A stretch of 64,000 bases of DNA from Cyanidioschyzon merolae (lineage: Eukaryota). The DNA lies in the NCBI GenBank assembly GCA_000091205.1, contig AP006489.2, one strand, 5' to 3'. This document shows positions 41,856 to 60,402 of this stretch, piece by piece. A program made the position numbers and the translations under genes. A model generated the notes under the pieces. It did no database searches. It worked only from the letters and a program-made list of their open reading frames with translations, and was not told where the DNA came from. How positions within the stretch are numbered: position 1 is the stretch's first letter; each line of letters opens with the position of its first letter.

Positions 41856-44492
41856 CTAGAAACGTTCCTGGATAAAGAGGATCGGTTTCTTCGTACCGAG
41901 GCGCTCGGGTTGCCTCTGGACTTTGTGCATGGCCCGTCGAACACTCGCACCAAGGGCTGGATTCCCACAGAAAAAGATGCCTCTTTGTACGTCGTTGGAG
42001 AAGCCAGACACGCGATTGAACTGTTTCACCTGGATAATGTTCCCAAAAAGTCTTTCAAACTCGTACGGATCGCGCAGGTCCAACAAATCCTCGATGAACG
42101 TTTCAAAGCGGGGCCGTCCCTGGTGAAACTGCAGTATCGACTTGGTTGATTGGCCGGCTTCCAGGATGCTCGCAGGAATCTCGCCTCTCGTCAGAAATAT
42201 GTGTACCCGAACGCGCGGAATCAGGTCAGGAGTCCAGGTTTGCGCCAAGTCGAACAGGCCTTGAATACCCCACAGGTCCGCGTATTCGCGCACCACCCAG
42301 ACAAAAGTTAGACTGAACACGTTCGCATACAGACGCTGCTCCTGCTGCTCCTGCTGCTCCTGCTGCTCCTGCTGCTCCTGCTGCTCCTGCTGCTCCTGCT
42401 GCTCCTGCTGCTCCTGCTGCTCCTGCTGCTCCTGCTGCTCCTGCTGCTCCTGCTGCTCCTGCTGCTCCTGCTGCTCTACATGGGAGACCTTATCGTCGGA
42501 TTGGACGCACCGCTGCTGCGCCACAGCTGTCCCAAGACCGTTCCCCCTCCGCGAGAGCAAGGCGCTCGCTTTCCGTCCCAGATGACGCACGCGCCTCAGC
42601 TGGATACGCCACGGCCGCGGCAGATAGAAAATTCTGAGGGTCAGCGCAAACATGATACTTTTGATACAGAAGAGGACGAGGGCGATGATGCGCATCGCAT
42701 TCCCTGCGCCGTCCATATAATGCGACGAGTGTTGTTCGATGCCGAAGAGCGTTGCACCCACGACCAGGTCTGCAACGAGGAGTCCGCAAACACTCAGTGA
42801 TACAAAGCCGCGCGGGGTGCCGACGTAACGCCAGCGAGGCGGATCCAATGTCACCAGCATATCCGACGCAATCGTGAACGAGAAGAGAAAAAGAAGCACT
42901 GCCGAGCTGGTGAAATCCGCAACTAAGGCTACATTGGCATCGAATGCATTTGCGATGACATAAATCGTCAAGCTAATGTACAGCATCCAGAGCAGACTGA
43001 ACAGCCAGAGGCTACTCAATACAAAAGCCCGTAGTCGATCAATTCGCGTTTCCGTTTGGAATATTCCAACGCGCTCTTTCATGTACATCGAAAGGATGCC
43101 AGATTTCCGTATTCGATCCAGCAACTGTGCCGATGTTTCCTGTTTGCTCAGTGTATCGAGAGTCCCGTGCTGCGTTCCGGCCCTGATTCCTCGAATATCA
43201 TCATCGGACGCATCCGCGATGCCGGCCAATTTGGCGGGAGCACGAGCGCTACATATTTCCCGGAGTATGGAGACCATCGGGGTTGCACCAACGCCGCTTC
43301 CGATCAGCAACTGGTAGGGAAAGTGCAGATGGGACTGCGCCGGTGCTCCATACGGGCCTGCCAAGAGCACCCGGTACGCCTCGATTGTCGTCATACATAT
43401 CCGTTCAGGGGCCAAATCGAGGCCGTCCGCCGTTGTTGTCGCTGCTTCTGCCACTGCTGCTTCTGCAAGGCTGTGCAGCCTGCGAGTCCATTTGCCCACT
43501 GCCGCAATGTAGAACGTGATGCGATCCGAGTCGCATGACGGTGCGCTTGCGGCTGTGAACGGATGCCAAGCATCAGCGGGCATACCACACCCTTTGCGCG
43601 TGTCGATGATCATGATCTTGAAATACTGGCCCGGTAGGTAGACCGCGTTCCGTCGTTCAACGGAGAGCTTCACGATATTGGAGTTTGCCTGAGCCAGACT
43701 GAGCACCAGGATGCGCCGAGGAGTTACGGTCGCCCGGGAGAGCTGATACAAGCGGTCGATGATATAGAGGAATACCGGGCCTGCGAAGAAGTACACCGTC
43801 CAGGGCCGGCCGCCTCGCAAGCCGTGAAATACCAGACAGATGTATACCAGGACCGCAATCGGACGGTGCGTCCACCAGAACAGGCGGAACCATTTCCGGC
43901 GTACAGTTTCAACTCCAAAACCGAGCAAAGGAACCAGCAAAACCATGAGCACCACACCTGTGACAAAAAGCATGGTCGCTGGCAGTGCCGCTGGTCCCGT
44001 GAACAAACCGCCACGAAATACGAACACGCTCGCAGCGTAGTTGACGATCTGGGCGATGCCGTGAATCCAGCCGGTTGCGGCAAGTGACGTCCCTACGATG
44101 GTGTGCATGTCGGGTATCCATCGCTCCACACATAGCAGGTCGTAGAGAGGTGTGCGGTACAGAACCGTCGCTAGAGTGCGGTTTATCGTGAGCGGGAGGA
44201 CAAGCGAACAGAATGTGCACGCAAATCCCATGCCCCGTGCGATGGATCCCGCATACCGCAGGATACCACTGGGGCGCAAGTCGACGATAACGTAGCGTAC
44301 CCCGTAAGCAAAGAACCACGACATGGCACAGAAGAACAGGAGAACAATCGAGTACCAAAGCCCGTTTTCAACGAGGTGGATATTCCATATTTGCGTACGT
44401 TCCGTCAGGCTGGGATCGAGATTCGACTCGTTCTGTTTTGCTTTGTTCATCAGTATCGTACGAAAAACGCAGATGGAATAACCACAAGTCAA
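41856..44492 (-). CDS. Ferric-reductase/NADPH-oxidase (NOX/FRE) family protein with large TM-rich insertion and (QQE)n tract in the NADPH-binding domain
   Basis: A ferric-reductase TM domain with His-containing helices. FAD motif 'HPFTAASAP'. NAD motif 'LLIGSGVGATPMVSIL'. The C-terminus has 'FFCGNPALG'. An insertion of about 330 aa with 4 hydrophobic helices and 16x QQE lies between the NAD motifs. Confidence 0.8.
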   Translation of the reverse strand: MTCGYSICVFRTILMNKAKQNESNLDPSLTERTQIWNIHLVENGLWYSIVLLFFCAMSWFFAYGVRYVIVDLRPSGILRYAGSIARGMGFACTFCSLVLPLTINRTLATVLYRTPLYDLLCVERWIPDMHTIVGTSLAATGWIHGIAQIVNYAASVFVFRGGLFTGPAALPATMLFVTGVVLMVLLVPLLGFGVETVRRKWFRLFWWTHRPIAVLVYICLVFHGLRGGRPWTVYFFAGPVFLYIIDRLYQLSRATVTPRRILVLSLAQANSNIVKLSVERRNAVYLPGQYFKIMIIDTRKGCGMPADAWHPFTAASAPSCDSDRITFYIAAVGKWTRRLHSLAEAAVAEAATTTADGLDLAPERICMTTIEAYRVLLAGPYGAPAQSHLHFPYQLLIGSGVGATPMVSILREICSARAPAKLAGIADASDDDIRGIRAGTQHGTLDTLSKQETSAQLLDRIRKSGILSMYMKERVGIFQTETRIDRLRAFVLSSLWLFSLLWMLYISLTIYVIANAFDANVALVADFTSSAVLLFLFSFTIASDMLVTLDPPRWRYVGTPRGFVSLSVCGLLVADLVVGATLFGIEQHSSHYMDGAGNAMRIIALVLFCIKSIMFALTLRIFYLPRPWRIQLRRVRHLGRKASALLSRRGNGLGTAVAQQRCVQSDDKVSHVEQQEQQEQQEQQEQQEQQEQQEQQEQQEQQEQQEQQEQQEQQEQQEQRLYANVFSLTFVWVVREYADLWGIQGLFDLAQTWTPDLIPRVRVHIFLTRGEIPASILEAGQSTKSILQFHQGRPRFETFIEDLLDLRDPYEFERLFGNIIQVKQFNRVSGFSNDVQRGIFFCGNPALGASVRRAMHKVQRQPERLGTKKPILFIQERF
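42336..42477. repeat. (CTGCTCCTG)n 9-bp microsatellite, ~16 units, in-frame within the NOX gene (encodes QQE repeats)
   Basis: Direct reading of the sequence: 'gctgctcctgctgctcctg...'. Confidence 0.9.
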
Positions 44493-48646: not shown

Positions 48647-49258
48647 ATGTATGCAGGAATGCGTCTTAGAGTTGTCGCATTGCTCTTGATGCTCGTCACA
48701 TATCTGTGCGTTCCGAGTGCTGCGCTCGGTGTTGCCGCTGAGGATACGATTCAGGGCTCGCGTACCGTTCTCCGTGCTGCACCGGGCACAGAGTTTCGGA
48801 TTGGTGGCCCTGTCACGATCCAAAACATGACGATCGCTGCAAACTATCTCGTTGGAATCGAGGTGGCGCCAATGCCCCCGGGCATGCCAGATCCAGCGGC
48901 ACAAAATGTTGTGCATTTGGAGGCTGATGTGCACGCCACATCCACGAATCCCTGGGGATTCCCCAATGGATCCTGGATCCCGTACCTGAGCATTGTCTAC
49001 ACGATCAGCAAAGAGGGATCATCCTGGAGCGCCCGGGGTGTTCTCAGCCCTATGACTGCAGATGATGGCCCGCACTACGCCGACAGTCTGACACTTGCGG
49101 GTCCGGGTCGCTATGCGCTCATATACAAGCTCATTCCACCGCAAGTGAATGGTTTTCTAAGACACGTTGATCACGCGACTGGTGTGCCCGACTGGTGGAC
49201 GCCCTTCGAGGTGCCGTTCAACTTCACGTATCCGGTTGAAACAGCGTCAGCATCTTAA
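48647..49258 (+). CDS. P19/Tp34 (FTP-family) cupredoxin-like iron/copper-binding protein with signal peptide
   Basis: A signal peptide 'MRLRVVALLLMLVTYLCVPSAALG'. The mature region 'HLEADVHATSTNPWGFPNGSWIPYLSIVYTI...LSPMTADDGPHYADSLTL...GFLRHVDHATGVPDWWTPFEVPFNFTYP' is collinear with Campylobacter P19 'HLEADIHALKNNPNGFPEGFWMPYLTIAYEL...LMPMVADDGPHYGANIAM...GFGRHVDEETGVGKWFEPFKVDYKFKY'. Confidence 0.75.
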   Translation: MYAGMRLRVVALLLMLVTYLCVPSAALGVAAEDTIQGSRTVLRAAPGTEFRIGGPVTIQNMTIAANYLVGIEVAPMPPGMPDPAAQNVVHLEADVHATSTNPWGFPNGSWIPYLSIVYTISKEGSSWSARGVLSPMTADDGPHYADSLTLAGPGRYALIYKLIPPQVNGFLRHVDHATGVPDWWTPFEVPFNFTYPVETASAS

Positions 49259-51219: not shown

Positions 51220-52578
51220 TTGCATCGAGACATGGTCAACACGGCGACCACAGAGTCGGCTCGACCCGAGTCGAGAGCGATTACTGCGGCGGAGCTCCCC
51301 GCGAAGCTTGAACAACTGCGCGCTGAAGCAGAGACCGGTGGCGACACGAAGCCCGTCATAGAGGCCCTGTACGCGTTGGAAAAGAAGTTCCGTTTGGCCG
51401 ATGATGCGAACGCTACAGCGCTGGTAGCTACTGAGATCGTTCGTCTTGCCTGGCAGCAAGGCCGAGTGCCCGCACTCGTAGAGCACCTGCGACTGCTCAG
51501 CCGTCGTCGGGCGCAGCTCAAGCAGGTTGTTGCGACGATCGTGCGCGAGGGAATGCAGTACCTCGATCGAATAAAAGATGTTGCGGAGAAACGTGAGCTG
51601 TTGGAAGTGCTGCGCGATATATCCATGGGGAAACTGTTCCTGGAACTGGAGCGTGCGCGTCTCACCAGAATGCTAGCCGAGCTCATGGAGCAAGCCGGAG
51701 ATATTAGTGGTGCCGGGCGTGTGCTGAACGAACTCCAGATTGAAACATTCGGAAGCATGGAGCGTCAGGAAAAATGGACTTTTATGCTGGAGCAGATCAG
51801 GCTCTGCCTTGATCTCGAGGACACTGTTCGCGCGCAGATTATTGCGAACAAGTTCACAGCCCGAACACTGGTCGACGAGGAGTTCAGGAAGAGCCCCATC
51901 AAGACTAGGTATTATATGCTGATGATTCGACTGTATACAATGCAGCAGCGTTTGAAGCTCGCGGACGACACCCGTTTCATTGATATTGCCAGGGCATACC
52001 TTGCGCTTGGGGAGGAATTCCTGGGCAACGCGGCGCTGTATACGATCCTTGCTCCCCGGAACCATGAGCAACACGATCTGCTGCATCGATTGTCCCAACG
52101 TCAGCCATTGCTCGAGAACAAATCACCGCTCCGTATATATGGCGAACTCCTGTCACTGTTCCGGATCGAAGAGCTTATCCGCTGGCCAATCTTCGTTCAA
52201 TCATACCGCAGTGCGCTGGAGGAGAAGCACCCGGACTTGAACTGGTTGTACTTGCAACGCCGTGTTCACGAGCACAATCTGCGAGTGATCGCCAAATATT
52301 ACCGACGGATTCATTTGTCTCGTTTGGCTGCGCTTATGGAAGTCGATGAGGATACCGTGGAAGATCTGCTCTGCGATGAGATAACGAGTGGACGGATATG
52401 GGGCCGCATCGATCGTATCGATGGTATCGTGAGTTTTCAAAGGGAACGAAAACCAGAGGAGATTGTCTCTGAATGGGCGCAAAACGTCGACGAGGTGCTC
52501 GCTTCTGTGGACCGTCTCGATGAGTTGGTGAACAAGGAACGTCAGCAACGGGCGGTGCCTACGAGCGGTACGAGCTGA
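51220..52578 (+). CDS. PSMD12: 26S proteasome regulatory subunit RPN5 (PSMD12), PCI domain
   Basis: 'LLSRRRAQLKQVVATIV', 'ERARLTRMLAELMEQAGDISGAGRVLNELQIETFGSMERQEKWTFMLEQIRLCL', 'HNLRVIAKYYRRIHLSRLAALMEVDEDTVEDLL' and 'IDGIVSFQRERKPEEIVSEWAQNVDEVL' are collinear with human PSMD12. Confidence 0.9.
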   Translation: MHRDMVNTATTESARPESRAITAAELPAKLEQLRAEAETGGDTKPVIEALYALEKKFRLADDANATALVATEIVRLAWQQGRVPALVEHLRLLSRRRAQLKQVVATIVREGMQYLDRIKDVAEKRELLEVLRDISMGKLFLELERARLTRMLAELMEQAGDISGAGRVLNELQIETFGSMERQEKWTFMLEQIRLCLDLEDTVRAQIIANKFTARTLVDEEFRKSPIKTRYYMLMIRLYTMQQRLKLADDTRFIDIARAYLALGEEFLGNAALYTILAPRNHEQHDLLHRLSQRQPLLENKSPLRIYGELLSLFRIEELIRWPIFVQSYRSALEEKHPDLNWLYLQRRVHEHNLRVIAKYYRRIHLSRLAALMEVDEDTVEDLLCDEITSGRIWGRIDRIDGIVSFQRERKPEEIVSEWAQNVDEVLASVDRLDELVNKERQQRAVPTSGTS

Positions 52579-55274: not shown

Positions 55275-55946
55275 GTGCGCAGTAAACAGCAGCGACTGGC
55301 AATAAAGGCCGCAGCGTTTCCCACGTCGCACTTTTTGGACACGGGAGCGCACCAGCGACCAAGGCACTCAGCTGCAGGAACGAAGCGGATGCTTCGAGTG
55401 CTTCGCAGGTCTTCGAGTTTCAACCTGGTCGGGCCTTTCCCGGCTGCGATCCGGCCGAGGCTGGGTGTTCGGGAACAGAGCGGCGCGGCCAGTTATGTGG
55501 AAAGCCTCACGCAGCTGGGTCGCAAAGTGACACTGCCCAAGTCACCGTCGGAAGCTGTTCTTGAGAAAGTTGCAAACATGCACGAGAATTACCCTTACGT
55601 GACGCGCTTCACCTGCCCCGAGTTCACGTCGCTCTGTCCTCTTACAGGGCAACCGGACTTTTGTCATATGGTAATAGACTATGTGCCAGACAAGTGGCTC
55701 GTGGAGAGCAAATCGCTAAAGTTGTATTTACATTCGTTTCGTAATCACGGAGACTTCCACGAGGCATGCACTATTGGTATTGCCCGTAGGCTCACGACGG
55801 AACTAGAACCCAAGTGGCTGCGCATCGCGGGCTACTGGTATCCGCGTGGTGGCATTCCAATCGATGTCTTCTACCAGACGGGGGAGCCACCAAAAGGTCT
55901 CTGGATACCCGATACAGGTGTTCAGCCGTATCGCGGTAGAGGCTGA
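55275..55946 (+). CDS. queF: NADPH-dependent 7-cyano-7-deazaguanine (preQ0) reductase QueF, unimodular bacterial type, with N-terminal extension
   Basis: '[68 protein letters not shown]...[13 protein letters not shown]' is collinear with B. subtilis QueF '[67 protein letters not shown]...FTPRGGISIDPY'. The catalytic Cys and the E(S)K(S)LKLY QueF motif are present. The listed start is GTG, and the true start is probably the ATG at 55389 ([11 protein letters not shown], Arg-rich presequence-like). Confidence 0.8.
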
Positions 55947-56689
55947 ACTGCAGCGGCATTTGTCTCGTGTCGGATGCAAGTCCGTGATGGATGCGTTTCA
56001 GGCGATGCAGAAGAGAGCAGACAGCCCAGAAACGAAACTCGAGAGAAGCCCAGCGACCAGCGGAATCATCTCATTCACGCACATATTTCTTAGTGTGCAG
56101 GTTGGGTTAGGTTTCAGCAAAAATCATTCAAGTATCTACGTATCTAGCGAGAAACATAGAGTCGCATGAAGCGCACACTGCGTGCTCGCGCTGCTCAACG
56201 AGCTTGAGCAAGATATCTCCATGTGGAAGCGCATTCACTTTGCCGCAGCGAGCAGTAAACGTGCAGACAGAAACTTGCCGGTGCGTCGCCCGCAACGACT
56301 TCGCTCCGCCGAACAACCCGAGTGCATCGCTCACAGCGCCAGATGCCGCTCAAGCGTTCGAACTGGAACGGCGCCTGCGCTCTCCAGGTGCAAAATGCTA
56401 GACCCGGGATCGTTTTCTTGGTCCAGTCGCATAGAGACGGGAACTCGTGTCTCAGCTTATATTAATGATACCGTATTCAATCGCCGCATGCTTCTACGGG
56501 AAGCGTTCTTTTATCAGAGCTTGAAAAGACGCACCCATCATAGACTCGCCTGCACTCCATGATGAAGTACCGCTTCTGGCGAGGAGGGATGCAGGCTCGC
56601 GCGTTCCGCGAAATAATTCCAGTACTTCAGTTCTGGCGAGTATACTTCCAATAAACAACTTCGCGTAAGTATCGCACATACGCATCAGG

Positions 56690-56845
56690 AGCGTCATCAT
56701 CATCATCAGCGTTACTATCACCACCTTGGACATGTTGCCAATGTATTCATTCTCGTGTGTGTAGCGAATGCGCATTACGGTCACCATCGCCATCACCACC
56801 ACCATCATCAGCAGCAGCAGCAGGAGCAGCAGCAGCAATGATGTG
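56690..56845. repeat. Imperfect trinucleotide tract (CAT/CAC/CAG)n
   Basis: 'catcatcatcatcagcg...caccaccaccatcatcagcagcagcagcaggagcagcagcagcaatgatg'. It creates a spurious poly-L/M ORF on the minus strand (56494..57036). Confidence 0.8.
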
Positions 56846-56900
56846 AAAAATACCGCCAGTAACGGTACCAGCATCGAATACCGCACGCCGTATTTGCAGT

Positions 56901-57443
56901 TTAGCTGACAGGCCCGTAGGCGTGATCGAACGATGTCTCGTGATCGTGCTCTATTCGGTGCAGTGAGTCGAGAGGTTTCGGTCGATAGATTGCACGGGCA
57001 GTCGCTGTTTCCTCCACTGTTACAGCAGATAAACAAGGAATAGAAGGTTTCAGCTTCCGATACGCCCAGTACGCAATATACTCAGCAGTTGGCGCGTCTG
57101 TCTCTAAGGTCTCGTTCAAGTGCTGGTGATCAAGAAACTTTTCCACAAGAGGGCGAACGACGGCTGCGATCTCGTCAAAGTCCATGACCATGCCTTTCTT
57201 GGGACCAGAGGTCACCAGCGCCTCCGTCGATACTTCCACAACCAGCACGTACGAGTGACCGTGTAATCGACTGCACTTCGAGTCGTGGTGTTGTAGACAA
57301 TGGGATGCCTCGAAGGGGAACCGCTTCTCCAGAATAAACATGGCTGATGTTGCGTTCACCGCTGACCCAGCAGGCCTCAGAACACTTTCTCGCACCAGCG
57401 GCTGAAGCGCGTTCCCGGTTGACAGGGAAGCAGCGCACGCCAT
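56901..57443 (-). CDS. queD: 6-carboxy-5,6,7,8-tetrahydropterin synthase QueD (bacterial PTPS-I type), with N-terminal extension
   Basis: 'FILEKRFPFEASHCLQHHDSKCSRLHGHSYVLVVEV...GMVMDFDEIAAVVRPLVEKFLDHQHLNE...EYIAYWAYRKLKPSIPCLSAVTVEETATARAIYRP' is near-collinear with E. coli QueD '[37 protein letters not shown]...[27 protein letters not shown]...[36 protein letters not shown]'. The Cys-x3-His-Gly-His spacing is the QueD type, not the C-x5-HGH of animal PTPS. The true start is possibly the Met at about 57341. Confidence 0.8.
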   Translation of the reverse strand: MACAASLSTGNALQPLVRESVLRPAGSAVNATSAMFILEKRFPFEASHCLQHHDSKCSRLHGHSYVLVVEVSTEALVTSGPKKGMVMDFDEIAAVVRPLVEKFLDHQHLNETLETDAPTAEYIAYWAYRKLKPSIPCLSAVTVEETATARAIYRPKPLDSLHRIEHDHETSFDHAYGPVS

Positions 57444-58290
57444 GAGTCGAGGCTGGCGAAGGCGACCCGACGCCGGGCCGCTACGCAGCTCGGGGGGAGT
57501 AAAGCGACGCCCCGTCGTTGTCGGTATCTTTATGGACGAAGCGTCAGACCCCGAGGCAAGACTCTACACATGGGTCTATGAAAAGGCTCCGAAACTTCTA
57601 TTGCCCACAAATGTGACGGTAAACCGTCTCGAGGAGACGAGCGCCGTAGCCTCGTCAACAGCGCTGAATGCCTTCGTAGCCGGGGCGCTTGGCTCCGACG
57701 AGCCTGTCTCCAGTCGCCTCGCAGACCGCGTTTTGCTTCTGGGCAATCCCTCTAAGCATACGCGCAGGCGGGAGAGTGTTCTTGGTGGACAGAAAAGGCG
57801 TCGGTTGAAACCGAGTCGGCAGAGGCGGCAGGTGCAGCCGCTTACCGCTCGAGAGCGACGCAGACTCGGGTTGTATAAGCTGGACAAGCGCATTCCTTAC
57901 GCAGAGGTGCAACCACTGGCGCAGCTCTGGCTGGAGTACGCACAGTCCATGATCCCCGTGCAACAGCTCGACCGACTGCGGCAGCAGGAGCGAGAAGCAG
58001 TGCTCGACCGCCTTCTTCGGCTGGACTGGCACGGGGCCAGCATCACAGTGCACCAGAGCGCTGCCCCGGAGCGCGTCGGTGTTCACGGCATTGTTATTCA
58101 GGAGACTGAACAGACATTTAAAATCGTGTCGCCTGACTCTCGATTGCGTGTTCTGCCCAAGCTATCGACGGTGTTCACGGTGGACCTCAGCGACGACTGG
58201 GTGCTGGTTCTCTGCGGTGATGCCTTGCGAGTGCGGAGCGCGGAACGGTCCGTACGGAAACCGAAACGAAAAGCGCTGCTTCTTGTTTGA
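57442..58290 (+). CDS. POP4: RNase P/MRP protein subunit Rpp29 (POP4)
   Basis: The C-terminal Rpp29 fold 'LDWHGASITVHQSAAPERVGVHGIVIQETEQTFKIVSPDSRLRVLPKLSTVFTVDL.DDWVLVLCGDALRVRSAERSVRK' matches L.G..i.V..S....lvG..GIVv.ET.nTF.I.t.dn....iPK..svF.f.....i.G..l..Rp.eR. A basic N-terminal region is present. Confidence 0.7.
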   Translation: MSRGWRRRPDAGPLRSSGGVKRRPVVVGIFMDEASDPEARLYTWVYEKAPKLLLPTNVTVNRLEETSAVASSTALNAFVAGALGSDEPVSSRLADRVLLLGNPSKHTRRRESVLGGQKRRRLKPSRQRRQVQPLTARERRRLGLYKLDKRIPYAEVQPLAQLWLEYAQSMIPVQQLDRLRQQEREAVLDRLLRLDWHGASITVHQSAAPERVGVHGIVIQETEQTFKIVSPDSRLRVLPKLSTVFTVDLSDDWVLVLCGDALRVRSAERSVRKPKRKALLLV

Positions 58291-58349: not shown

Positions 58350-59411
58350 TCAAGTTTGGGATCGGTCCTCGGTTGACATCGGCGGCGACTCGAGGCGCCC
58401 TGCTCCAGTTGCGCGCCTCTGCGACCCAACGTAGACAGCTTTGCCCGAACTTGTCATCATGTAGTTGGGATCAAAGATCAGACCTTTGGGAAGAATGAGT
58501 TCCCGGTAGGCACTAGAGCACTGGTACCCGACACGATGCGGGATGTGGCTTGCAAACAGACCCCATTTGTCACCGCAGCCGTACTGGCGCGCTACGGCCA
58601 TGAACCTGTCGAGCTCCTCGGGACTCCAGTCACCGAACCACTGCTCTTCTCCGGGCTCGTTGTGGCGATAAAAATAGGCATTAGGGTTCTTCTGAAGACT
58701 TCGTCGGGCGATCTCTTTCGCACTGAGTGTCACCCGTGTCGAGCTCGTACCCTTCGTCGTTCCGAGCGGGTTGCGCACCGAAAACCGCCCGCCCCCGTTT
58801 GAGTTCCAGGCCTCTGCCGCATTCGAGGCAATGGACCAGCGTGCGGCTACCTCGGGGTTCACCCAGCCTCGGTAGTGGCCATCCACACGCAGGGGCTCAG
58901 GCGCATCTGCGGGCAAGGGTGCAACCTCTGTGAAATAGCGCTGGATCTCATATAGCTCATCGAAGACACCGCTCAAGATCTCATTTCGGGACGTCGAATC
59001 GGAGTTTCCGCTGTTTGTTCCGTCTTCCGTGGAACGAATGAGTTCAACTGGCCCATTCGACACGGGGCAGTCTTCTTCCCGAAAGCGTTTGCGTTCCGAC
59101 CGACGCAGTGGTTTCTGCGGAGTTGAGGTGCATTTTGGATCCCTTTCCGGCACTCGCTTTCTCACCCTTGATAATGTCGAGTTTTTCTTCTGATCAACGG
59201 ACGCGCTGAGCTCGACTGGGCCCAGCGCTTGCCGTGCTTCTGCGTTTTGTTGCTTTAGTGGATCCGTGCCGCTCTCGAACGTCTTTGACCAAATTTGTTG
59301 CAAAAATATACGGTTCCTTTCGAGCCGTTTTAGCCTCTCGAGTTCGTAAGTTGAAGCATAGCGCTCTGTTTCAGAGGAGTTTATGTCGACGTCATCGTTT
59401 AAAGCCAGCAT
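58350..59411 (-). CDS. Myb/SANT-domain protein
   Basis: 'WSPEELDRFMAVARQYGCGDKWGLFASHIPHRVGYQCSSAYRELI' fits the Myb/SANT repeat (W..eE...l...v..yG...W..ia..ip.Rt..qc..ry). The rest is low complexity and basic. Confidence 0.5.
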   Translation of the reverse strand: MLALNDDVDINSSETERYASTYELERLKRLERNRIFLQQIWSKTFESGTDPLKQQNAEARQALGPVELSASVDQKKNSTLSRVRKRVPERDPKCTSTPQKPLRRSERKRFREEDCPVSNGPVELIRSTEDGTNSGNSDSTSRNEILSGVFDELYEIQRYFTEVAPLPADAPEPLRVDGHYRGWVNPEVAARWSIASNAAEAWNSNGGGRFSVRNPLGTTKGTSSTRVTLSAKEIARRSLQKNPNAYFYRHNEPGEEQWFGDWSPEELDRFMAVARQYGCGDKWGLFASHIPHRVGYQCSSAYRELILPKGLIFDPNYMMTSSGKAVYVGSQRRATGAGRLESPPMSTEDRSQT

Positions 59412-59712: not shown

Positions 59713-60402
59713 ATGCGGTCCGCCTATGCAGCAAATCTACTTTTACTCATTTTCTCATTTTGGTTCATGCTAGGCGTTTGCGGGGTTCACGCCTGGAACT
59801 TCCGCATGGATCCAGAGGTAGACCCCGAGCGCGTCTGCTTTTTGGCGTCCGTGAAAGGTGGACGGGAGGTCCAGGGTTTCTTCGAGGTCCTGCTTTCGCC
59901 GGACTCGGACGCCCCTGCAGCCGTGGGGTTTACCATCACAGGGCCAGTGGTAGACTCGAAGCAACCAGAGAAAGCTAGAGGTCCCGAGCTCGTCCGTCTG
60001 GTGGAGGTTTCGGCACCTTTCGTGTTCGCTGCACCGAGCGACGGCGAGTATGAGCTCTGCTTCCACTACGGGGAAGAGAAGAAAGCACGAGATATTGCGT
60101 TTTTCTACGACCTTGGTGACGCAGAGGATGAGGTGTCGGAACTTCTGCGTGACGCAGTGAAACAAGATAAGCATCTGGAGCCCCTGCAGCATAGGGCAGT
60201 TTCGATCATGCACGAGCTGCGTAACGTACGGATAGCGCAGATGCGAATGCGAGAACGCATTCGCCAAAATCTTCGTATGCTGCAAGAGCGTAAGCGATCC
60301 GTCATGTGGATGACGTTGTTGGAGCTTTTGACTGTGGTTGCAGCGTGCACCTTGGAGGTAGTTTTCGTGAAGCAGAAGCTCGATACTCGGCGCATATTTT
60401 GA
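59713..60402 (+). CDS. p24/emp24/gp25L (TMED) family cargo receptor
   Basis: A signal peptide 'LLLLIFSFWFMLGVCGVHA'. A GOLD domain 'FRMDPEVDPERVCFLASVKGGREVQGFFEVL...GEYELCFHY'. A coiled coil 'HELRNVRIAQMRMRERIRQNLRMLQ'. A TM 'WMTLLELLTVVAACTLEVVFV' and a short basic tail 'KQKLDTRRIF'. This is the canonical p24 layout. Confidence 0.8.
   Translation: MRSAYAANLLLLIFSFWFMLGVCGVHAWNFRMDPEVDPERVCFLASVKGGREVQGFFEVLLSPDSDAPAAVGFTITGPVVDSKQPEKARGPELVRLVEVSAPFVFAAPSDGEYELCFHYGEEKKARDIAFFYDLGDAEDEVSELLRDAVKQDKHLEPLQHRAVSIMHELRNVRIAQMRMRERIRQNLRMLQERKRSVMWMTLLELLTVVAACTLEVVFVKQKLDTRRIF

What the first reader, a model, noticed from the sequence alone, without database searches (positions are those of the whole stretch)
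55275..57443. Convergent pair of bacterial-type queuosine-precursor genes (QueF plus QueD) in a eukaryotic locus
Eukaryotes are thought to salvage queuine and not make preQ0/preQ1 de novo. Here a textbook unimodular QueF (preQ0 reductase, with the catalytic-Cys context and the E-S-K-S-LKLY motif) lies ~950 bp from a QueD whose sequence is nearly collinear with E. coli QueD. The QueD has Cys-x3-HGH spacing, not the C-x5-HGH of animal PTPS. The two genes are tail to tail. Both proteins carry N-terminal extensions of about 35-45 aa ([11 protein letters not shown]... and MACAASLSTGNALQPLV...). These resemble organellar presequences, suggesting plastid or mitochondrial targeting and an endosymbiotic or HGT origin. 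The flanking genes (RPN5, Rpp29, p24, Myb) are plainly eukaryotic, so this is not bacterial contamination. It could mark a complete 7-deazaguanine pathway (QueC and QueE elsewhere in the genome). Alternatively the pair is repurposed: QueD doubling as PTPS for pterin synthesis, and QueF as a nitrile reductase.
Basis: partly seen in the sequence, partly recalled or inferred. Interest (0 to 1): 0.8.

Follow-up and report, generated by a model that had tools for sequence, protein, structure and literature searches.

The report
Bacterial queuosine-precursor genes in a red alga
The nuclear genome of the hot-spring red alga Cyanidioschyzon merolae carries two intact, conserved bacterial-type genes (QueF and QueD) for making the precursor of the tRNA base queuosine, which suggests, but does not prove, that this eukaryote makes queuosine itself rather than scavenging it as eukaryotes are thought to do.

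Summary
The window is a Cyanidioschyzon merolae 10D nuclear chromosome. ORF 55389-55946(+) is a unimodular QueF (preQ0 reductase). ORF 56901-57341/57443(-) is a QueD (PTPS-I, CxxxHGH). Both pass NCBIfam equivalog cut-offs and keep all catalytic residues.

The genes are convergent, 954 bp apart, between RPN5 and Rpp29/Myb/p24. The same arrangement occurs in three other Cyanidioschyzon-group lineages. Composition and codon usage match the host genes. Synonymous sites are saturated and dN is 0.14-0.28, so this is old, selected nuclear DNA and not contamination.

QueF nests among alphaproteobacterial QueFs (about 75% identity). QueD belongs to a different QueD subfamily shared with phage deazaguanine clusters, a low-GC bacterium and one other eukaryote. 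The two genes therefore had different donors, and their adjacency is secondary.

Only QueF has a conserved, basic N-terminal extension that looks like a mitochondrial presequence. The QueD extension is probably a longest-ORF artefact.

Published work places bacterial-like TGT, QueA and QueG in red algae and still says all eukaryotes salvage queuine. I found no paper that mentions these two genes. QueC, QueE and FolE could not be searched for here, so a complete de novo pathway is a well-motivated inference (about 0.5-0.6), not a result.

The parts
55389..55946 (+). QueF coding sequence (185 aa plus stop). NADPH-dependent 7-cyano-7-deazaguanine (preQ0) reductase, unimodular type. Identical to BAM79612.1 / XP_005535898.1.
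   Evidence: TIGR03139 scores 150.3 bits (cut-off 86.9). 100% identical to the C. merolae 10D protein. 74-77% identical to alphaproteobacterial QueF.
55389..55496 (+). N-terminal extension of QueF (about 36 aa, [36 protein letters not shown]). It precedes the point where bacterial QueF proteins begin and is a presumed organellar presequence, mitochondrial-like.
   Evidence: Bacterial homologues align from residue ~33-40 onward. An extension of 36-59 aa is present in all four Cyanidioschyzon-group QueFs. It is poorly conserved in sequence, with 5-9 Arg+Lys and 1-4 Asp+Glu. No targeting predictor was available.
56901..57341 (-). QueD coding sequence from the conserved start MFILEK (146 aa plus stop). 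6-carboxy-5,6,7,8-tetrahydropterin synthase, PTPS-I. Part of BAM79613.1 / XP_005535899.1.
   Evidence: TIGR03367 scores 95.3 bits (cut-off 89.25). Motif CSRLHGH. 44% identical to E. coli QueD.
57342..57443 (-). Annotated 34-aa N-terminal extension of QueD (MACAASLSTGNALQPLV...). Probably not translated, and part of the divergent QueD/Rpp29 intergenic region.
   Evidence: L001, L002 and L085 have no in-frame upstream ATG, and the annotated Cyanidiococcus protein also starts at MF(V/T/E)L. The ATG at 57443(-) overlaps the Rpp29 ATG at 57442(+). The conserved Rpp29 start aligns with the second Met, at about 57532.
55947..56900 (.). 954-bp spacer between the two stop codons. It holds short trinucleotide and hexanucleotide repeats at 56694-56837, which produce a spurious 180-aa ORF at 56494-57036(-).
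   Evidence: The spacer is 763 bp in L001 and 121 bp in L002. No tRNA or Rfam match.
51220..52578 (+). Flanking eukaryotic gene: proteasome lid subunit RPN5/PSMD12.
   Evidence: PSMD12-CSN4_N, E = 1e-59; PCI. It has the same position upstream of QueF in L001 and L002.
57442..58290 (+). Flanking eukaryotic gene: RNase P/MRP subunit p29. The conserved start is probably near 57532.
   Evidence: Same position in L001 and L002.
58350..59411 (-). Flanking eukaryotic gene: Myb-domain protein.
   Evidence: A Myb-domain gene holds this position in L001; in L002 the gene at this position has no Pfam hit on record.
59713..60402 (+). Flanking eukaryotic gene: p24/emp24 cargo receptor.
   Evidence: Same position in L001.

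Best explanation
These are two functional, nuclear-encoded, horizontally acquired bacterial-type enzymes of the preQ1 branch of queuosine (Q) synthesis. They became fixed in the common ancestor of the Cyanidioschyzon/Cyanidiococcus group of red algae.

QueD is a Zn-dependent T-fold enzyme with no conserved presequence, so it is probably cytosolic. It would convert 7,8-dihydroneopterin triphosphate, the product of GTP cyclohydrolase I, into 6-carboxytetrahydropterin. This is the first committed step.

QueE and QueC, which are not in this window and were not tested, would carry the product on to preQ0.

QueF carries a basic N-terminal presequence, probably mitochondrial. It would reduce the nitrile of preQ0 to preQ1 with two NADPH, through a covalent thioimide on the Cys of the FTSLCP motif.

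preQ1 would then feed the bacterial-like TGT, QueA and QueG that have been reported in red algae and predicted to be mitochondrial. The end product is Q at position 34 of organellar GUN tRNAs.

Shown here: gene identity, intact active sites, nuclear location, conservation, purifying selection and different donor lineages. Inferred: the enzymatic activities, the localisation, the presence of QueE, QueC and FolE, and the link to the organellar tRNA pathway.
For: Identity and active sites.

Organism and public records.

Eukaryotic flanks.

Conserved order RPN5 - QueF> <QueD - Rpp29:
- L001 (JGI, GC 52%).
- L002 (ENA, GC 65%).
- Cyanidiococcus, where the two genes have consecutive locus tags on one contig (gene order was not examined there).
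-.

Composition: GC3 is 0.597 and 0.578, against 0.576 +/- 0.045 for host ORFs. The CAI-like index is 0.803 and 0.792, against 0.797 +/- 0.019.

Selection: dN is 0.14-0.28 and dS is saturated. The one pair that could be estimated gives omega of about 0.06.

QueF origin:
- The 80 nearest GTDB genomes are almost all Alphaproteobacteria.
- In Nitratireductor pacificus (L018) the neighbouring ORFs form a queC-queD-queE-queF cluster.
- In an NJ tree the algal QueFs are monophyletic in 157 of 200 bootstraps and lie inside that group.

QueD origin: it belongs to a separate subfamily.

Motif: CSRLHGH fits PTPS-I only (PMC5041015).

Literature:
- Bacterial-like TGT, QueA and QueG with predicted mitochondrial targeting occur in red algae, "most notably Galdieria". 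YhhQ BlastP hits were exclusively bacterial, so no preQ0/preQ1 importer of that type was found in red algae (PMC12301720).
- A chlamydial-type, mitochondrion-predicted TGT is reported in red algae (PMC2376095).
- C. merolae 10D was cultured in MA2 medium at pH 3 (PMC11938285). I take MA2 to be an inorganic medium with no queuine in it; the paper does not state its composition.
Against: - QueC, QueE, FolE, bTGT, QueA and QueG were not demonstrated in C. merolae itself. The tools hold no searchable copy of the rest of its genome.
- The papers name Galdieria and "red algae", not C. merolae specifically.
- There are no expression, localisation or nucleoside data.
- QueD seems to lack a presequence while QueF has one. 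This requires an intermediate to cross an organellar membrane by an unknown carrier.
- The trees are distance-based, use about 120-146 columns, and leave the sister groups unresolved.
- The two genes come from different donors and are convergent, so their adjacency could be coincidental.
Confidence: 0.6

Rival explanations
1. Partial or salvage use only. QueF reduces preQ0 taken up from the environment, as in bacteria that lack QueC, QueD and QueE. QueD does something else, such as a pterin or folate side activity. There is no complete de novo pathway.
For: QueC and QueE were not shown here. C. merolae folate synthesis looks atypical in a published survey, with no identifiable standard folP, and PTPS has been proposed as a folB substitute (PMC4224340). 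The Chloropicon paper interprets the bacterial-type tRNA enzymes of algae as a preQ1 salvage route.
Against: QueD has CSRLHGH. It lacks the Glu of the PTPS-III motif ExxHGH and the spacing of PTPS-II, and it passes the QueD equivalog cut-off. The conserved linkage with QueF across four lineages argues for a shared function. No YhhQ-type importer was found outside bacteria. The natural habitat (acid hot springs, from general knowledge) and the MA2 culture medium look like poor sources of preQ0.
Confidence: 0.22
2. Ancient endosymbiotic inheritance rather than later horizontal transfer. QueF descends from the mitochondrial (alphaproteobacterial) ancestor and was lost in nearly all other eukaryotes.
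For: The nearest relatives are Alphaproteobacteria, and the algal clade has no resolved sister inside them. QueF has a mitochondrial-type presequence.
Against: About 75% identity and very short branches to living alphaproteobacteria. Apart from the Cyanidioschyzon group, no hit among the best 120 carries a eukaryotic name or source (most of these hits are unnamed). The metagenome scan found only C. merolae-like and apparently bacterial contigs, whose contexts were not inspected. Massive parallel loss would be required. This rival concerns origin only, not function.
Confidence: 0.12
3. The 7-deazaguanine product is used for something other than tRNA queuosine, such as DNA modification or deazapurine metabolites.
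For: The closest QueD relatives include phage clusters (QueC-like, QueD, QueE, FolE next to a terminase) and many IMG/VR contigs. Such clusters make modified DNA bases in phages (PMC6884629, abstract seen). Papers on 7-deazapurine natural products also mention red algae (not read).
Against: QueF makes preQ1, the substrate of bacterial-type TGT and QueA. The QueF here is an ordinary housekeeping alphaproteobacterial type. No DpdA-like gene lies nearby.
Confidence: 0.04
4. Bacterial contamination or a chimeric assembly.
For: None, beyond the bacterial affinity of the two proteins.
Against: The genes lie inside a 584-kb chromosome record between eukaryotic genes. The same arrangement appears in independent assemblies of three other lineages and in metagenome contigs that are 99% identical. 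Composition matches the host, while sampled bacterial QueF genes have GC3 of 0.43 to 0.90, five of the six above 0.78. QueF has an N-terminal extension that bacterial homologues lack.
Confidence: 0.01

Closest known systems
Unimodular bacterial QueF (YkvM type, EC 1.7.1.13; B. subtilis PDB 4F8B; TIGR03139)
   Same: Same length of catalytic core, collinear, 50% identical to the B. subtilis enzyme and 74-77% identical to alphaproteobacterial enzymes. The catalytic Cys, the QPD Asp, GDFHE, the second Cys in HEAC and the [13 protein letters not shown] motif are all present.
   Different: Encoded in a eukaryotic nucleus, with host codon usage and a 36-aa basic N-terminal extension that bacteria lack. 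It is not in a queCDEF operon.
Bacterial QueD / PTPS-I (E. coli QueD, PDB 4NTM; TIGR03367)
   Same: CxxxHGH motif, the His ligands, the LDHxxLN and EET catalytic elements. 44% identical and collinear.
   Different: It belongs to a subfamily with a 4-aa insertion (…GPKxGM…) shared with phage deazaguanine clusters. It has a 25-aa C-terminal tail. It is nuclear and is not next to QueE or QueC.
Bacterial-type, mitochondrion-targeted queuosine pathway of algae (BL-TGT, QueA, QueG, +/- YhhQ) described for Chloropicon and red algae (PMC12301720; PMC2376095)
   Same: Nuclear genes of bacterial origin for Q metabolism with organellar presequences. QueF would supply exactly the substrate (preQ1) that this pathway needs.
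   Different: That pathway was described as salvage of imported preQ1. Neither QueF nor QueD is mentioned in that paper. The genes here belong to the upstream, de novo part.
Animal and fungal PTPS-II, and Plasmodium and bacterial PTPS-III
   Same: Same Pfam family (PF01242) and T-fold.
   Different: The motif is CSRLHGH, not CxxxxxHGH or ExxHGH, so membership of PTPS-II and PTPS-III fails.

Membership tests
QueF, unimodular preQ0 reductase (TIGR03139) | Score above the curated equivalog cut-off | tested here: met
   150.3 bits against 86.9. The bimodular model TIGR03138 scores only 53.9 against 293.
QueF, unimodular preQ0 reductase (TIGR03139) | Catalytic Cys (thioimide), Asp of QPD, His/Glu of GDFHE, and the second (protective) Cys | tested here: met
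   [15 protein letters not shown] and NHGDFHEAC align with B. subtilis 4F8B. The residue roles come from established knowledge of B. subtilis QueF and from the abstract of PMC5372742.
QueF, unimodular preQ0 reductase (TIGR03139) | NADPH-binding QueF motif E(S/L)K(S/A)hK(L/Y)(Y/F/W) | tested here: met
   [10 protein letters not shown]. The motif definition is from established knowledge.
QueF, unimodular preQ0 reductase (TIGR03139) | NADPH-dependent reduction of preQ0 to preQ1 | not testable with these tools
   Needs an enzyme assay.
QueD / PTPS-I (TIGR03367) | Score above the curated equivalog cut-off | tested here: met
   95.3 bits against 89.25. The margin is narrow.
QueD / PTPS-I (TIGR03367) | Signature CxxxHGH, without the Glu of ExxHGH | tested here: met
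   K-C-S-R-L-H-G-H. Motif definitions are from PMC5041015.
QueD / PTPS-I (TIGR03367) | Physical linkage with other que genes | tested here: met
   Adjacent to QueF in C. merolae, L001 and L002, and encoded by consecutive locus tags on one contig in Cyanidiococcus. However, the two genes come from different donor lineages.
PTPS-II (biopterin) and PTPS-III (folate, FolB bypass) | CxxxxxHGH (II) or ExxHGH (III) | tested here: not met
   The motif is CSRLHGH.
Complete de novo queuosine pathway in one organism | FolE, QueE and QueC encoded in the same genome | not testable with these tools
   There is no searchable copy of the rest of the C. merolae genome. None of the ORFs of 200 aa or more that were scanned against Pfam is such a gene. 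No paper was found.
Complete de novo queuosine pathway in one organism | Bacterial-type TGT, QueA, and QueG or QueH present | not tested
   Literature only: red algae, most notably Galdieria (PMC12301720), and a chlamydial-type TGT in red algae (PMC2376095).
Complete de novo queuosine pathway in one organism | Q present in the tRNA of axenic cells grown without queuine | not testable with these tools
   Needs LC-MS. C. merolae 10D is cultured in MA2 medium at pH 3.
Organelle-targeted nuclear protein | N-terminal extension relative to bacterial homologues, conserved in presence across relatives, basic and poor in acidic residues | tested here: met
   QueF: 36-59 aa in four lineages. No TargetP or MitoFates was available, so the compartment is inferred.
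Organelle-targeted nuclear protein | The same feature, for QueD | tested here: not met
   No upstream in-frame ATG in L001, L002 or L085, and the annotated Cyanidiococcus protein has no extension. The C. merolae ATG overlaps the Rpp29 ATG.
Horizontally transferred gene in a eukaryote | Nested in a bacterial clade, flanked by eukaryotic genes, composition ameliorated, and vertically inherited afterwards | tested here: met
   placement; flanks; composition, selection; synteny. The trees are NJ only.

The most novel reading that the evidence does not exclude
Cyanidioschyzon-group red algae make queuosine entirely de novo, from GTP to preQ1 to Q-tRNA. They do this with a patchwork of nuclear genes taken from different bacteria or phages: an alphaproteobacterial QueF, a phage-type QueD and a chlamydial-type TGT. 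The pathway is split between the cytosol and an organelle. This would be the first eukaryote shown to be independent of bacterial queuine.
Probability: 0.5. Interest if true: 0.8.

Novelty: new member of a known kind. Interest (0 to 1): 0.62.

Why it matters
Reviews and primary papers up to 2025 state that every eukaryote examined depends on bacteria for queuine (PMC12301720, PMC10639084, PMC5699537). These two genes encode the first committed and the last steps of preQ1 synthesis. They have been kept under selection in an alga that is cultured in MA2 medium, which I understand to be purely inorganic.

If QueE and QueC are also present, C. merolae would be a counter-example to that rule. It would also explain where the preQ1 comes from for the bacterial-like TGT, QueA and QueG of red algae.

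The question is directly testable in a model organism with a complete genome. From general knowledge, C. merolae also allows gene targeting by homologous recombination.

The locus is also a clean case of two functionally linked genes from different donors ending up side by side in a eukaryotic chromosome.

Tried and rejected
1. Looking for QueC, QueE, FolE and TGT in C. merolae. No tool holds the rest of the genome. The ORFs of 200 aa or more in the 64-kb window that were scanned against Pfam include none of them. Homology searches list only the best 120 hits, so a bacterial query would not surface an algal orthologue. I ran no further search on that.

2. Literature. Ten searches found no paper on QueF or QueD in C. 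merolae or in any eukaryote. Zallot 2014 (PMC4136680) is not held. The supplements of PMC12301720 do not mention Cyanidioschyzon or Galdieria.

3. Identifying the second QueD-bearing eukaryote (L085). A search with its Pus10 found no named close relative.

4. Identifying the low-GC bacterium L083, which carries the apparent sister QueD. NCBIfam gave nothing diagnostic. Its S1-NusA-IF2-RbfA-TruB-RibF gene order reminded me of Chlamydiota. That is a recollection and not a test, so I make no claim.

6. Co-transfer of QueD and QueF as an operon. Rejected, because the QueD that lies beside the alphaproteobacterial QueF is only 35-41% identical to the algal QueD and falls in a different clade.

7. 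Cyanobacterial (plastid) origin of QueF. No cyanobacterium is among the 80 nearest genomes or among the named top hits.

8. Hidden RNA genes in the spacer. No tRNA and no Rfam family was found.
Full report
**What is there**

The window matches a 584,452-bp nuclear chromosome record of the red alga Cyanidioschyzon merolae 10D. The ORF at 55389-55946(+) is identical to BAM79612.1 / XP_005535898.1, which NCBI calls "hypothetical protein, conserved" and UniRef calls "NADPH-dependent nitrile oxidoreductase". The ORF at 56901-57443(-) is identical to BAM79613.1 / XP_005535899.1, "similar to 6-pyruvoyl tetrahydrobiopterin synthase".

Both gene identifications are solid.
- The first protein matches Pfam QueF (E = 4e-31). 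It scores 150.3 bits on the NCBIfam equivalog for unimodular preQ1 synthase, TIGR03139, against a cut-off of 86.9.
- The second matches Pfam PTPS (E = 5e-33). It scores 95.3 bits on the QueD equivalog TIGR03367, against a cut-off of 89.25.

**Active sites**

The QueF core is 50% identical to B. subtilis QueF (4F8B). It keeps the catalytic-Cys context FTSLCP, the QPD aspartate, ESKSLKLY and GDFHEAC.

QueD is 44% identical to and collinear with E. coli QueD (4NTM). It keeps FEASH, C-S-R-L-H-G-H, LDHQHLN and EET.

The motif rules quoted in PMC5041015 are PTPS-I CxxxHGH, PTPS-II CxxxxxHGH, PTPS-III ExxHGH and hybrid CExxHGH. By these rules CSRLHGH is pure PTPS-I/QueD. A biopterin (PTPS-II) or FolB-bypass (PTPS-III) role therefore fails its defining motif.

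**It is nuclear, old and under selection**

The genes are convergent, with 954 bp between the stop codons.
- Upstream lies RPN5.
- Downstream lie RNase P/MRP p29, a Myb protein, p24 and SAP30.
- The rest of the window encodes ordinary eukaryotic proteins such as ANTH, Ndc80, ERCC1, Sen15, TRAPP and the glycine-cleavage T protein.

The order RPN5 - QueF> <QueD - Rpp29 recurs in two other lineages. A Myb-domain gene follows Rpp29 in the first of them.
- A 119.5-kb JGI hot-spring contig (L001, GC 52%; QueF 84% and QueD 83% identical).
- A 64-kb ENA contig (L002, GC 65%; 74% and 72% identical).

In Cyanidiococcus yangmingshanensis the two genes carry consecutive locus tags on one contig.

Composition shows no break. 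GC3 is 0.597 (QueF) and 0.578 (QueD), against 0.576 +/- 0.045 for 17 host ORFs. A CAI-like index is 0.803 and 0.792, against 0.797 +/- 0.019. Sampled bacterial QueF genes have GC3 of 0.43 to 0.90, and five of the six are above 0.78.

Between lineages dN is 0.14-0.28 while dS is saturated. The one estimable pair gives omega of about 0.06. Contamination or a chimeric assembly is excluded.

**Origins**

The best QueF hits outside the Cyanidioschyzon group are 71-77% identical. Those that carry names are Alphaproteobacteria. The 80 nearest species genomes in GTDB are almost all Alphaproteobacteria, with a few Desulfobulbia. In Nitratireductor pacificus (L018), QueF is the last gene of a queC-queD-queE-queF cluster.

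In an NJ tree of 146 columns rooted on B. subtilis, the four algal QueFs are monophyletic in 157 of 200 bootstraps. They sit on short branches among the alphaproteobacterial sequences, with no resolved sister.

QueD tells a different story. In 22 of the 80 loci a QueD homologue lies close to QueF, in most of them about 0.7-1.1 kb upstream. It is only about 31-41% identical to the algal QueD. The algal QueD clade is supported in 191 of 200 bootstraps. It belongs to another subfamily, marked by a GPKxGM insertion. That subfamily also includes:
- a QueD from a low-GC bacterium (L083);
- QueDs from phage-like clusters (QueC-like, QueD, QueE, FolE next to a terminase, L087/L088);
- about 20 IMG/VR viral contigs at 43-53% identity;
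- the QueD of a second, unidentified compact-genome photosynthetic eukaryote (L085).

The two genes therefore had different donors. Their adjacency in the algal chromosome arose afterwards, or is a coincidence that has been kept.

**N-terminal extensions**

Bacterial QueFs align from residue ~33-40 of the algal protein. The next Met after M1 lies inside the conserved core, so the 36-aa extension ([30 protein letters not shown]…) must be translated.

All four algal QueFs have an extension of 36-59 aa. It is poorly conserved in sequence, rich in Arg, Lys, Ser and Ala, and poor in acidic residues. This is what an organellar presequence looks like, and the MLRVLRR start is mitochondrial in style. 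No predictor was available, so the compartment is an inference.

The QueD extension fails the same test. In L001, L002 and L085 there is no in-frame ATG upstream of MF(V/T/E)L, and the annotated Cyanidiococcus protein starts there too. In C. merolae the ATG at 57443(-) overlaps the annotated Rpp29 ATG at 57442(+). The conserved Rpp29 start aligns with a Met 30 codons further in. Both extensions look like longest-ORF artefacts of a divergent intergenic region of about 190 bp. QueD most likely starts at 57341 and has no presequence.

**How it most likely works**

- QueD makes 6-carboxytetrahydropterin from dihydroneopterin triphosphate.
- QueE and QueC (not seen here) would make preQ0.
- QueF, inside an organelle, reduces preQ0 to preQ1.

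A 2025 paper reports bacterial-like TGT, QueA and QueG with predicted mitochondrial targeting in Chloropicon and in red algae, "most notably Galdieria". It finds the YhhQ transporter of preQ0/preQ1 only among bacteria, apart from Chloropicon itself. It reads the system as salvage of imported preQ1, and it restates that all eukaryotes studied depend on salvage. QueF and QueD are not mentioned.

An earlier study found a chlamydial-type, mitochondrion-predicted TGT in red algae.

QueA acts on preQ1-tRNA, so these algae need a source of preQ1, and QueF supplies exactly that. C. merolae 10D is cultured in MA2 medium at pH 3, which I understand to be inorganic and free of queuine.

The presence of both the first committed enzyme and the last enzyme, linked and conserved, makes a full de novo route the most economical reading. 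The two middle enzymes remain unverified.

**What I could not do**

I could not search the remainder of the C. merolae genome. No paper in the library links C. merolae, or any eukaryote, to QueF, QueD, QueC or QueE. The metagenome scan added no new eukaryotic lineage. The second QueD-bearing eukaryote could not be named.

**Verdict**

- Right: bacterial-type genes in a eukaryote, horizontal origin, and a presequence on QueF.
- Wrong on two details: the QueD presequence, and the implied joint or endosymbiotic origin.

The enzymes are ordinary members of known families, and the genes are already in public records with electronic names. What is new is the host and the implication. I rate it a new member of a known kind, with interest of about 0.6. 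That would rise to about 0.8 if QueE and QueC are found and Q is detected in axenic cultures.

Noticed in passing
window 48647-49258 (+): A 203-aa ORF with a strong match to Pfam Iron_transport (PF10634, E = 3e-49; I recall this family as the bacterial P19-type Fe2+ transport protein). It has a signal-peptide-like N-terminus and lies about 4 kb from a ferric reductase gene (41856-44492, -). It may be another bacterial-type gene in an iron-uptake neighbourhood.
   Followed up: no
window 57342-57531: The annotated start codons of QueD (57443, minus strand) and Rpp29 (57442, plus strand) overlap. Neither the 34-aa nor the 30-aa extension has a counterpart in related algae, so both public gene models probably start too early.
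   Followed up: yes
window 56694-56837: Short repeats (TCA)5, (TCACCA)4.5 and (CAG)9.7 in the QueF-QueD spacer. They generate a spurious low-complexity 180-aa ORF at 56494-57036(-).
   Followed up: partly
L085 7986-8711 (also L086): An unidentified photosynthetic eukaryote with a compact genome (plastid-type sigma factor, eukaryotic Pus10, prohibitin, HECT-RCC1 neighbours; GC 50%). It encodes a QueD with no N-terminal extension but a 115-aa Ser- and acid-rich C-terminal tail, and the gene is not linked to QueF. A search with its Pus10 found no named close relative.
   Followed up: partly
L087 1489-8259 (also L088): A phage-like cluster: ParB_N protein, unknown 253-aa protein, divergent QueC-like, QueD, QueE (Cx14CxxC type), small ORF, GTP cyclohydrolase I, HTH, terminase GpA. 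Its QueD is among the closest non-eukaryotic relatives of the algal QueD (about 53-55% identity).
   Followed up: partly
L083 7055-16372: A low-GC (37%) bacterial contig with a lone QueD between an amino-acid/UMP-kinase-family gene (Pfam AA_kinase) and an S1-NusA-IF2-RbfA-TruB-RibF gene string. This QueD is the most frequent NJ sister of the algal QueD clade (128 of 200 bootstraps). The taxon was not determined.
   Followed up: partly
L002 (whole locus): The algal lineage with syntenic QueF and QueD at 74% and 72% identity has 65% GC, much higher than C. merolae (53%). It may be an undescribed or poorly sampled relative.
   Followed up: no
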